This document shows, piece after piece, positions 22,091-26,987 of a stretch of 64,000 nt of DNA. Below the pieces are notes generated by a model. It searched no databases. It was not told the DNA's origin and saw nothing but the letters and a program-made list of their open reading frames with translations. Each line of letters opens with the position of its first letter. Within the stretch, counting starts at the first letter, position 1. The stretch comes from Schmidtea polychroa (Eukaryota): positions 262,818,001 to 262,882,000 of the forward strand of contig CM097885.1 of the NCBI GenBank assembly GCA_044892525.1, given 5' to 3'. The translations under genes were made by a program, and so were the position numbers.

Positions 22091-25000
22091 TAATATATAT
22101 ATATATATTCCCTCTATCTGATTCTGGTAGTGGACCGACTACGTCCATAGATATCATTGTCATTGGTTCTGCTGGTACTGGCATTGGTTTTAATGGCCCC
22201 TTCCATTTTGTTCCCGTGTTTTTTCTGGTTGCGCAAGTTATACAATTCTTCACCCATTCCGTTACATCCTCAATCAATGTAGGCCAGAAATACTTTTGTT
22301 TCATTCGCGCCAACGTCTTTTTTGATGACATATGTCCTCCGAGTCTTCCGTCATGGTATTGTGTTAGCAAATCTTTACGTCTATTCTCTGGACTGCACAT
22401 TAGTCTTTTTTCACCATCCATTATCAATAGCCAATCTTTCTCCATGATATATCGATGTCGGTGTTTATCCATATGCTCTTTTAACTTTTGATCTTTCTCG
22501 TATACTTCCGCTTTCCCTGTCTTTACATATTCAATGATTTGCTTCAACTCTGCATCCTCTTGTTGGTCTTTCCGTAATTGGCAAAAATCTAAATCTTCCG
22601 CTACCATTAGACATATTCGTTGCATTTCGTGATCTACTAAGTCCGGGAAAATAAATCTTGACATACAATCCGCATTGGCATTCGCTCTTCCCGCTTTGAA
22701 TTTTATGAACGGTGAATATTCTTGTAACTGCATTGCCCATAGCATTAATCTGCTTGAAGCTTCTTTGTGCTGTCCGAGCCATACTAATGGTTGATGATCA
22801 GTGGTTATGCATATTTCGTGACCCCACAACAAATATCGAAAATGCTTAATCGCTTGTATTATTGCTAACGCTTCTCTTTCTGTTACTGAATAGTTTTTCT
22901 CATGCTTTTTAAACGTTCTACTGTAATAGCCGATCACTCTTTCTTTTCCTTCTTCATCTAGTTGTCCCAATATTGCTCCGGCTGCATATCCACTTGCATC
23001 TGTGGCTAATAAAAACGGTTTCTTGAAATCCGGATGTACTAGTATTGGGGCTTCAATTAATTTATCTCGCAATGTTTCAAAGGCTTTTTGCTGTTCTGCT
23101 CCCCAGATAAATGAAATGTCTTTTTTCACTAATTCCTGGATTGGTTTCGCAATACTCGCATAATTTTTAATGAATTTCCGATAATATCCGCATAATCCAA
23201 GGAATTCTTGAACTTGGGTAACTGTCTTTGGTGGTGAACATGTTTTTATTTTCTCTATATTTCTGGGATCTGGTTCTTTCCCTTTTGCTGACACTATGTG
23301 TCCTAGAAAAGTAACCTTCTCTTTTGCCCAATCACATTTTGATGGTATTGCGTGTAATGCGACATCGCATGCTCCCAAATCTAAATCCGAACTAGCGAAT
23401 ATATCTTTATATTCTATTAATAATTGTTGGAGTTTCCTCTTTTCGTTTTCCGTTAATAATGTACTATCGATTATCCATAACTCGTCATCTGTGGTTGATT
23501 CGTTCGTGACTTTTGGTAACTCGATATCCATCATGGGTGTTAATCTACCCAATCGTTCATTTTCATATATGATTTTATCTTCTTCCTCGAAATTCGTGAT
23601 GTTGATTGGTATTTCTCCTTCTTCATTTATCGTTATTATTTCTCGTGCTAATGGTAGTTCTCGTCTTTTTTCGAATGATTTACTTGGTTCAAAGATAGCT
23701 TCTCCTTCCATTCCAGTATCTACTTTTATTTGACATATCATCTGTGATTTTGCTGGTACAATTATTTTTTCCGGGCATCTGATTATGGCGTTCATCTTGC
23801 ATATTCTACTCATTTTGTCTTTTAGACACATTGTCGTTAAGTCGATTACTACTTCCTTGAACAATTCCGGCATTAAATCGGTTCCGATTATACATGGTTC
23901 ACTCAGTTTGGGTATTACTGCCAGATAGGTTTCGATTTCATTATCTTGATATCGTAGCGTGGTCCACCATCTTCCTACTACATCTACGGTTTCTTTACTG
24001 CATGCGATAATATGAATAGTTGTTTGTTCAATATCTTTCCAATATTTACTGGGTATCTGGTTTATTGCTATTGCTGATACATTCGCTCCAGTGTCTATCA
24101 TTGCGCCCGTCTCCTTCCCGTTGATTTGGATCATGACTGTTACTGCTGCTCCTCCCGGTGAGCTCATTACTGCTATTGTTCTTACGTCATCAGCTTGGTC
24201 CACGCTTTTCGTTCTTCGGGTTGGCATATAGTTCATACCTGGTTGACTTGGTAATTGTGGGTACATATTATGTGTCATGGTCAAAGCTGCTTGTTGCCCA
24301 ACGATATCTGGTGGTATGTAACTTCCGTTAGCTATCCAGGTATTTGTCTTTTCTTTCTCCCAATATGGTGCTGTTTCTATTTGCTTTTCGTTCGGGTTTC
24401 TACTTGGATACGGATATTTGTCATTCCCGTTATCGTCATCATCCCTATCACTGCTGTTTGATCGATTTCTAAATCTGTCTAAAAATTTTGGTTTGTTCTT
24501 TTTCAGCTGGGCTCTTGTTGCTTCATCATACATTGTTTTTCGGAATCGTCTGCCGACTTCCTCGTCAGTCCCTTTTATTTTTGTCAGTATTTTGATTAAT
24601 CGTTTTATTCTATGTATATCTTTAGAATGACCATGCAACACCATTGTTTTCGCCAAAAATGGTAAGAAGCCCACTATCAACTTCCAATTTACTTTCTTTT
24701 CCCTCTTATAGATATCAAAGCAAGCTAACATTTGAGTCAATATCACTCTGATGATCTGAATAATTAAGATGATTCCCAATATTCCTGCCATCATTTGACC
24801 GAACACTAGAAACCTTCCCCACATTGCTTTCATCATGTTCGACGTGGCATGTTGAAAATGATCCGGTGATAATAATAGTTCATAATTTGGACCTGATTGA
24901 AAATTTGTTCCACCAGTTATGGTAACCATATTTGATAAAATGGATTCTCGTCTTGCTGGGAATAGTACGTTTAGTCGTGCGGTTTCTAAATCCTCTGGTG

Positions 25001-26987: not shown

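What the first reader, a model, noticed from the sequence alone, without database searches (positions are those of the whole stretch)
23850..26528. Chuvirus-like class III env placed between gag and pol, in frame with protease-RNase H-integrase
Seen: within one uninterrupted 1642-aa frame a signal-like segment, a Cys-patterned glycoprotein and a TM precede the DTG protease, RNase H and IN zinc finger. Known: retroviral and errantiviral env, and chuvirus-type env captured by BEL/Pao elements, lie 3' of integrase as a separate, usually spliced ORF. Inference: here Env and Pol are co-translated; the topology is self-consistent (N-terminal part cytosolic, ectodomain lumenal, Pol cytosolic after the TM), which would tether Pol to the budding membrane.
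Basis: partly seen in the sequence, partly recalled or inferred. Interest (0 to 1): 0.9.

Follow-up and report, generated by a model that had tools for sequence, protein, structure and literature searches.

The report
Burro-type planarian retroelement, envelope inside polyprotein
This is a broken copy of a giant, virus-like jumping element, likely from a planarian flatworm, which carries a predicted membrane-fusion protein of the chuvirus/herpesvirus kind between its capsid and enzyme genes in one reading frame; the layout is real and conserved but was already published in 2019.

Summary
Observation confirmed, novelty not. The 1,647-codon frame (22059-27002, minus strand) holds a signal-like segment, a class III glycoprotein (Pfam PF24664 E 9e-72; model closest to chuvirus G, then herpes gB), a TM, protease, RNase H and the integrase zinc finger.

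It is a fragment of a ~30-kb Ty3/gypsy element. This copy has five frameshifts, one stop and an in-frame loss of the RT core. In 37 of 69 scored copies the frame runs 4,724-4,817 aa (gag, Bcl-2-like, env, PR, RT, RNase H, IN, ankyrins). Three further families in the genome keep the order, so it is no local rearrangement. Env dN/dS is about 0.03.

The layout is published: in-frame env between gag and pol in planarian Burro elements (PMC6431247), and GAG-ENV-POL gB-type errantiviruses (PMC13524379). The scan also noted it at other loci of this genome.

Likely mechanism, untested: one multi-pass polyprotein cut by signal peptidase and the element's protease, with Pol held on the membrane only until maturation. 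Not found in print: a second signal-ectodomain-TM cassette after integrase (earlier scan notes flagged it) and a recurring candidate cleavage motif.

The parts
8813..12931 (-). 3' LTR, about 4.1 kb; holds a 212-codon frame at 9464-10102
   Evidence: 4,138-4,145 nt matches to LTRs of other copies L077, L078, L079
13166..13837 (-). accessory ORF with a signal-like start and an internal hydrophobic segment; no Pfam hit
   Evidence: hydrophobic segments read from the sequence
13871..15826 (-). two accessory ORFs that look coiled-coil (13871-14575, 14822-15826), also in sister L026
   Evidence: no hit above a Pfam cut-off
16020..17459 (-). TRAF-like accessory ORF: RING, TRAF zinc finger, MATH
   Evidence: MATH_2 E 1.8e-24, zf-C3HC4 E 2.7e-5
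18027..19079 (-). C-terminal cassette of the polyprotein: second signal-like segment (18978-19025), ~250-aa predicted ectodomain, second TM (18180-18230), short tail
   Evidence: same layout at the polyprotein end in L049/L050 and L058; ectodomain dN/dS 0.15; FN3 fold only a weak lead
19080..21745 (-). integrase C-terminal part and two ankyrin-repeat blocks; frameshift near 20585
   Evidence: (Ank_2 E 1.5e-14 and 1.4e-7)
21746..22138 (-). integrase core, cut off from the zinc finger by a frameshift near 22110 and ended by an in-frame stop at 21746-21748
   Evidence: (rve E 2.4e-11)
22218..22391 (-). integrase H2C2 zinc finger
   Evidence: PF17921 E 8e-20
22650..23342 (-). RT thumb/connection remnant and RNase H
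   Evidence: PF17917 E 5.7e-38
23342..23346 (-). junction of an in-frame loss of 190 codons that removes the RT core with its YxDD motif; 5-nt microhomology; seen only in this copy
   Evidence: (1 of 40 scored matches spans the junction: the window itself); inconclusive
23358..23795 (-). dUTPase-like linker between PR and RT
   Evidence: PF00692 E 0.096, weak; same position reported for Burro
23796..24185 (-). aspartic protease, DTG at 24095, with candidate cleavage sites at both ends (24176, 23795)
24186..24626 (-). predicted cytosolic tail linking Env to the protease
   Evidence: dN/dS 0.03-0.10
24636..24686 (-). second, weakly hydrophobic Pro-kinked segment after the TM, basic on both sides; likely lies on the membrane and does not cross it
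   Evidence: KD 1.41; conserved in other families
24732..24794 (-). Env transmembrane segment
   Evidence: (KD 2.55)
24798..26474 (-). class III fusogen ectodomain (chuvirus G / herpes gB type), 13 Cys
   Evidence: dN/dS 0.025-0.035
26475..26528 (-). internal signal-like segment in front of Env
   Evidence: read from the sequence, no SignalP run
26553..27002 (-).
   Evidence: E 0.049; family profile: the 60 best PDB rows shown are all Bcl-xL/Bcl-2/Bok, best E 0.007; E 2.7e-6 in L052
27003..30390 (-). ~1,100-codon gag extension with ubiquitin-like repeats; frameshift near 27660
   Evidence: (weak: PI3K_rbd E 0.012, ubiquitin E 0.25); Ubl reported for Burro
30394..31585 (-). gag: capsid and CCHC knuckles; frameshift near 30930
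   Evidence: (Retrotrans_gag E 2.2e-10 in sister L021; zf-CCHC E 3e-12)
33612..34109 (-). upstream RING (C3HC4) accessory ORF
   Evidence: (E 7.3e-8), also in sister L028
34513..34530 (-). primer-binding-site-like 18-mer, 7 nt inside the 5' LTR end; tRNA-Pro type by recalled likeness only
   Evidence: 1,814 genomic matches with up to 1 mismatch, 0 in the reversed control; no tRNA gene at the 4 loci scanned
34538..40828 (-). broken 5' LTR: inner half 34538-36540, then a foreign 1.9-kb repeat (36539-38420), then most of the outer half inverted (39000-40828)
   Evidence: (8 substitutions in 1,995 aligned positions between the LTRs)

Best explanation
This is a broken copy of a Burro-type giant Ty3/gypsy element whose sister copies encode Gag, a Bcl-2-like domain, a class III fusion protein, Pol and a second predicted surface protein in one ~4,800-aa frame, likely translated as one multi-pass membrane polyprotein that is cut into parts. 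Shown: the order, the single frame in sisters, the fold class of Env (by a predicted model) and purifying selection on Env. Inferred steps: (1) Gag, the ubiquitin-like repeats and the Bcl-2-like domain are made in the cytosol. (2) The internal signal opens ER translocation; signal peptidase frees the Env N-terminus, and the signal stays behind as a C-terminal anchor of Gag-Bcl-2, standing in for a myristoylated matrix. (3) The Env TM stops transfer, so PR-RT-RNase H-IN and the ankyrins face the cytosol on the Env tail. (4) A second signal and TM put a second small protein in the lumen. (5) When polyproteins cluster at the budding membrane the protease dimerises and cuts at recurring [IVM]-[NCA]-x-[MLI] sites, which frees capsid, PR, RT and IN inside an enveloped particle that spreads between cells. 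Pol is tethered only until then. This copy itself lacks the RT core and is not autonomous.
For: 37 of 69 scored env copies lie in stop-free frames of 4,724-4,817 aa (these are the best-scoring 69 of 2,904 candidates). L021 and L026 show the whole order. Env precedes RT in 27 of 28 stretches from four families (RT motif not found in one); env and PR share a frame in 22 of 28. 10 of 13 long library proteins scanned have env followed by a protease in one chain. Class III: the env profile hits only herpes gB in the PDB, 37 of 37 rows, best E 0.0018; model pLDDT 89; Foldseek best hits are chuvirus G (E 1e-38, TM 0.71) and gB (E 2e-14). Env dN/dS 0.025-0.035, like PR at 0.02. A signal-like segment precedes Env in all families and all 11 library proteins printed. 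Basic residues follow the TM and flank the second hydrophobic segment. A profile trained on six enzyme/gag borders ranks the capsid N-terminal border 6th of 4,674 positions without training on it. Literature.
Against: No protein, particle or transcript data were obtained. A 1:1 Gag:Env:Pol ratio is unlike most retroelements (own knowledge). No SignalP/TMHMM run; topology rests on hydropathy and charge. The cleavage motif was first picked by eye, so the shuffle test is post hoc. In one search, 4 of the top 30 sites are lumenal (17% expected by length), so the motif does not confirm the topology; the sites before the two signals rank only 23rd and 41st, and the motif differs in the other families. 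The Bcl-2 BH2-like motif precedes env in only 3 of 11 library proteins, so the Bcl-2 anchor is not general.
Confidence: 0.66

Rival explanations
1. The single frame is real, but most protein comes from spliced or prematurely ended subgenomic RNAs (gag only, gag-pol without env, env alone), so Pol is mostly not tethered to Env.
For: It would solve the stoichiometry problem; errantiviral env is usually made from a spliced RNA (own knowledge).
Against: The frame stays open through the TM-tail-PR junction in four families and in library proteins, and the tail is under purifying selection (dN/dS 0.03-0.10). Neither is needed if env and pol are always made apart.
Confidence: 0.15
2. The polyprotein is made as in the best explanation, but Env serves as an ER anchor for assembly or as a cell-cell fusogen; no extracellular infectious particle is formed.
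For: I found no report of Burro particles (listing; passages of PMC8532177). Chary and Hayashi state that the entry mechanism of gB-type errantiviruses is unknown.
Against: The whole ectodomain keeps a full class III fold with conserved cysteines and dN/dS about 0.03, more than an anchor needs; a second predicted surface protein is also kept.
Confidence: 0.14
3. The second hydrophobic segment after the Env TM also crosses the membrane, so the reader's topology is wrong and Pol needs another route to the cytosol.
For: The segment is conserved in all families examined and reaches KD 1.7 in one library protein.
Against: KD is only 1.41 here, with a central Pro and basic residues on both sides; lumenal PR, RT and IN could not work (established knowledge).
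Confidence: 0.04
4. The order is a local rearrangement or an assembly artefact of this copy.
For: This copy is rearranged elsewhere: RT loss and a broken 5' LTR.
Against: All 15 sister stretches aligned are colinear through env and pol; other families and unrelated library proteins share the order; it is published.
Confidence: 0.01

Closest known systems
Burro / GYPSM1 giant gypsy-like LTR elements of planarians (Arkhipova and Yushenova 2019, PMC6431247, section 7 read; Grohme 2018 and Jurka 2007 not seen)
   Same: About 30 kb with long LTRs; one ~4,800-aa ORF (4,873 aa in Burro1); gag with three CCHC knuckles in sisters; ubiquitin-like, BCL2-like, env in frame between BCL2 and PR, dUTPase-like between PR and RT, ankyrins, MATH/TRAF cargo.
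   Different: Here TRAF/MATH is a separate downstream ORF (inside ORF1 in Burro1, upstream in Dugesia tigrina). No BIR hit in the ORFs scanned. The paper's text mentions no second signal-TM cassette (its Fig. 2A could not be seen).
GAG-ENV-POL HSV/gB-type errantiviruses, Smed_errantivirus_1 to 6 (Chary and Hayashi, PMC13524379; sections 5 part 1 and 11, passages and supplementary rows read)
   Same: gB-type env between gag and pol in flatworms, multi-copy. By eye, locus L039 of this genome is near-identical to Smed_errantivirus_2 in the printed env stretch.
   Different: The window's env matches none of the six printed sequences exactly; the nearest is Smed_errantivirus_5 (28 of the first 50 positions, counted by eye). 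The main text has no hit for 'polyprotein', 'fused' or 'single ORF'.
Chuvirus (Jingchuvirales) glycoprotein G and herpesvirus gB, class III fusogens
   Same: Pfam PF24664; conserved cysteines; predicted fold matches chuvirus G (TM 0.71) and gB.
   Different: Those are stand-alone proteins of about 650-900 aa; this one is an internal module of a retroelement polyprotein, about 20% identical to chuvirus G and 11% to gB.
Atlas virus (Belpaoviridae, hookworm; PMC9094657, passages read)
   Same: A single polyprotein holds Gag, Pol and envelope glycoproteins without stops or introns.
   Different: BEL/Pao, env after pol, class II phlebovirus-like Gn-Gc; Pol does not hang on an Env tail.

Membership tests
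Ty3/gypsy LTR retrotransposon | pol order PR-RT-RNase H-IN | tested here: met
   in sister L021; in the window the RT core is lost
Ty3/gypsy LTR retrotransposon | two LTRs with a primer binding site | tested here: met
   the 5' LTR is rearranged, so no target-site duplication could be read
Ty3/gypsy LTR retrotransposon | RT phylogeny within Metaviridae | not tested
Burro giant planarian elements | about 30 kb, multi-kb LTRs, high copy number | tested here: met
Burro giant planarian elements | one ~4,800-5,100-aa ORF: gag, Ubl, BCL2, env, PR, dUTPase-like, RT, RH, IN, ankyrin | tested here: met
   (Ubl and dUTPase only weak Pfam hits)
Burro giant planarian elements | apoptosis/ubiquitin cargo (MATH/TRAF, RING, BIR) | tested here: met
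   TRAF and RING found; no BIR hit in the ORFs scanned
Burro giant planarian elements | sequence identity to Burro1-4 / GYPSM1 | not testable with these tools
   source paper not held; no reference sequences
Class III viral fusogen (chuvirus G / gB type) | sequence and fold homology over the ectodomain, with the long central helix | tested here: met
   (helix 311-358)
Class III viral fusogen (chuvirus G / gB type) | trimer with membrane-fusion activity | not testable with these tools
   only a monomer was modelled; no assay
BEL/Pao element with chuvirus env | env 3' of integrase | tested here: not met
Fibronectin type III surface protein (second cassette) | FN3 fold in the second ectodomain | tested here: inconclusive
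   no Pfam hit; Atlas score 0.86 to FN3 clusters for L049, a lead only; no hit for the window's own; PDB E 1.6; no model obtained

The most novel reading that the evidence does not exclude
Burro elements are two-glycoprotein enveloped retroelements built from one multi-pass polyprotein: the Env signal doubles as the tail anchor of Gag-Bcl-2, Pol rides the fusogen's tail into the bud, and the second, FN3-like surface protein after integrase is the attachment partner that a gB-type fusogen needs. That would answer how gB-type errantiviruses enter cells without gD/gH/gL.
Probability: 0.25. Interest if true: 0.6.

Novelty: new member of a known kind. Interest (0 to 1): 0.22.

Why it matters
The headline, env in frame between gag and pol, is already in print, so the locus itself adds little. 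What remains open is how such a polyprotein is processed and how gB-type retroelements enter cells. The sequence now gives concrete positions to test: two internal signals, two TMs, candidate protease sites and a second surface protein. If the model holds, a retroelement builds an enveloped particle the way flaviviruses process their polyproteins, with Gag, fusogen and Pol in equal amounts.

Tried and rejected
Word-indexed protein searches found nothing (2,614, 4,663 and 4,608 candidates, none scored); the profile search of the representative library did (1,879 hits at E up to 0.001). Single-sequence search of Env against the PDB gave only chance hits.

Expression and splicing: no RNA holder listed. 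Contigs laid on L021 showed 15 of 32 joints, none with GT..AG ends and none in the two runs guessed to be RNA; contigs cannot settle this. No contig bridged the RT-loss junction in 4 runs, so a private deletion and an assembly error are both open.

An RT-less subfamily copied in trans was considered because another copy also has a 1,647-codon frame; rejected, since L029 has RT and only the window spans the junction.

A 2-kb LTR with a missing target-site duplication was my first reading; rejected when other copies showed a 4.1-kb LTR and a broken 5' LTR. The PBS search found other PBS-like sites and no tRNA gene.

Absence of the cleavage motif from the ectodomains as proof of topology was rejected: 0 observed against 0.3 expected, and lumenal sites score well.

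Literature: 7 searches. One search (Burro, retrotransposon, fibronectin, planarian) listed 2 papers that look unrelated by title and abstract start; neither was opened. Grohme 2018 is not held; Sacco 2022 was seen only as a citation; figures and those papers' supplements could mention the second cassette.

Full report
Observation. The minus-strand frame 22059-27002 has 1,647 codons stop to stop. Pfam finds in it the Monjiviricetes fusion glycoprotein (E 8.8e-72), a retroviral protease, RNase H and the integrase zinc finger, plus a weak Bcl-2 hit ahead of the glycoprotein; it finds no RVT_1. The one strong hydrophobic peak is 24794-24738 (KD 2.55), followed by a weaker one at 24692-24636 (KD 1.41). 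A signal-like segment at 26528-26475 precedes the ectodomain.

The frame is a fragment. The env protein has 69 scored matches in the window's own genome (of 2,904 candidates), 97-100% identical, and 37 of them lie in stop-free frames of 4,724-4,817 aa. Two overlapping stretches of one sister, read separately, show capsid, three CCHC knuckles, a long extension, Bcl-2-like domain, signal, Env, TM, PR, RT, RNase H, IN, two ankyrin blocks, a second signal-like segment and a last TM. Against that sister the window copy has frameshifts near 30930, 27660, 27003, 22110 and 20585, an in-frame stop at 21746-21748, and an in-frame loss of 190 codons at ~23345 that removes the RT core. All 15 sister stretches aligned carry the RT segment, and only the window spans the junction among 40 scored matches of 744 candidates. 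Public contigs did not bridge it, so a private deletion and an assembly error both remain possible.

The element. LTRs of other copies match 8813-12931 over 4.1 kb; the 5' LTR is split into 34538-36540, a foreign 1.9-kb repeat and an inverted remainder at 39000-40828. The shared halves differ by 8 substitutions in 1,995 positions, so the insertion is recent. A PBS-like 18-mer lies at 34513-34530; its tRNA-Pro label is recalled, and the four loci scanned held no tRNA gene. Accessory ORFs encode a RING protein upstream and a TRAF-like protein, two coiled-coil-like proteins and a small membrane protein downstream.

Order is conserved. A PF24664 search (68 of 2,581 candidates scored) and a Bcl-2 search led to three more families whose env is 34-37% identical to the window's. 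Over 28 stretches from the four families, env precedes RT in 27 (motif not found in one), env and PR share a frame in 22, and knuckle, env and RT share one in 14; some stretches do not reach the knuckles and others are broken (the PR motif also hit an unrelated upstream site in five). In the representative library, 10 of 13 long top hits scanned have env followed by a protease in the same chain, 5 of them with RT.

Env is a class III fusogen under selection. A 115-sequence profile hits only herpesvirus gB in the PDB (37 of 37 rows, best E 0.0018). The model has mean pLDDT 89 and a 48-residue central helix. Foldseek ranks chuvirus glycoproteins first among viral models (E 1.4e-38, TM 0.71, 19% identity); all PDB rows shown are gB (best E 1.7e-14, TM about 0.43). 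Between the window and four sisters, dN/dS is 0.025-0.035 in the ectodomain, about 0.02 in TM and PR, and 0.03-0.10 in the tail and Bcl-2-like part. Fusion activity was not tested.

What is known. [quoted passage not shown] Chary and Hayashi (PMC13524379; section 5 part 1, section 11, passages and supplementary rows) report GAG-ENV-POL gB-type elements in Platyhelminthes, Nematoda and Bryozoa and list six for Schmidtea mediterranea. By eye, L039 is near-identical to their number 2, which points to a Schmidtea-like host, and the window's env is nearest to number 5 without matching it. Atlas virus is a single Gag-Pol-Env polyprotein (PMC9094657 passages). Earlier scan notes on this genome reached the same verdict at other loci (79 notes fit, 8 shown); they are not independent evidence.

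How it likely works. Inferred from anatomy. The internal signal is present before Env in every family and in the 11 library proteins printed. It would start translocation after about 1,700 cytosolic residues and, once cut, remain as the anchor of Gag-Bcl-2, as true Bcl-2 proteins are tail-anchored (own knowledge). The BH2-like motif precedes env in only 3 of those 11 proteins, so this double use is not general. The TM returns the chain to the cytosol; the weak second segment has basic residues on both sides and likely does not cross. A motif [IVM]-[NC]-[MVLAS]-[MLI] occurs 7 times in the gag region against 0.8 expected (motif chosen by eye, so post hoc). A profile trained on six conventional borders ranks the capsid N-terminal border 6th and the sites before the two signals 23rd and 41st of 4,674 positions, while left-out training sites rank 6-79; 4 of the top 30 are lumenal, so it does not prove topology. 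The motif differs in the other families. Pol would thus be carried on the Env tail into the bud and released by its own protease. Main rivals are subgenomic RNAs and a non-infectious role for Env; the contig data cannot decide.

Possibly undescribed. The polyprotein ends in a second signal, ectodomain and TM in the window's family, L049/L050 and L058, and in library proteins P0002 and P0006; L051 shows the signal and ectodomain but is broken before any TM. Its ectodomain is under weaker purifying selection (dN/dS 0.15). An FN3 fold is only a lead (score 0.86 for L049; nothing for the window's own; PDB E 1.6). I did not find it in the text read or's listing, but figures and Grohme 2018 could not be seen, and earlier scan notes (e1-9163015, e1-8146890) flagged it. 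Chary and Hayashi call the entry mechanism of gB-type errantiviruses unknown, which makes this protein a candidate attachment partner.

Verdict. Observation confirmed; interpretation largely right on fold and frame, wrong on novelty. New member of a known kind, and a defective copy. Interest 0.22; novel case probability 0.25, interest 0.6 if true.

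Noticed in passing
window 18027-19079 (-); L049:7102-8268 (-); L058:1435-2316 (+): Second signal-ectodomain-TM cassette ends the polyprotein in three families (signal and ectodomain also in a broken fourth, L051); weak FN3 lead.
   Followed up: partly
window 30744, 30285, 30054, 29685, 27637, 26534, 24176, 23795, 22616, 21256, 19064 (-): Recurring [IVM]-[NCA]-x-[MLI] motif at domain borders; candidate sites of the element's protease.
   Followed up: partly
window 36539-40828: A 1.9-kb multi-copy repeat sits in the 5' LTR, and the outer LTR half lies inverted beyond it.
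   Followed up: partly
window 9464-10102 (-); L028:3683-4447 (+): The LTR carries a 212-254 codon frame kept between subfamilies whose LTRs are only about 80% alike; no Pfam hit.
   Followed up: no
window 32576-33049: 79-nt tandem array in the leader between the RING ORF and gag, also in sister L028.
   Followed up: no
G000:C1:130901009 onward: A 475-bp tandem array in which each unit holds the PBS-like motif.
   Followed up: no
G000, e.g. C1:15405873, C1:34775875, C1:203692554, C4:89948841-90831822: Many multi-copy short Bcl-2-like frames (152-199 aa) outside the polyproteins; the three neighbourhoods fetched had no env, RT, gag or IN match.
   Followed up: partly
library proteins P0001, P0002, P0003, P0005, P0009, P0015: Some env-pol relatives seem to carry two or more aspartic-protease domains; P0002 has one more after integrase.
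   Followed up: no
library protein P0006: An env-pol polyprotein labelled in NCBI as a Flavobacteriaceae MAG protein; likely animal DNA in a bacterial bin.
   Followed up: no
L058:2177-4345 (+): A 722-codon accessory frame after the polyprotein of another family; looks like the exonuclease that earlier scan notes mention; not scanned.
   Followed up: no
window 7357-7872 (+): Frame that looks like a hAT transposase C-terminus (recalled likeness) near the 3' LTR.
   Followed up: no
window 41142-41505 and 59006-59612: Short-period tandem arrays (14 nt and 30-31 nt).
   Followed up: no
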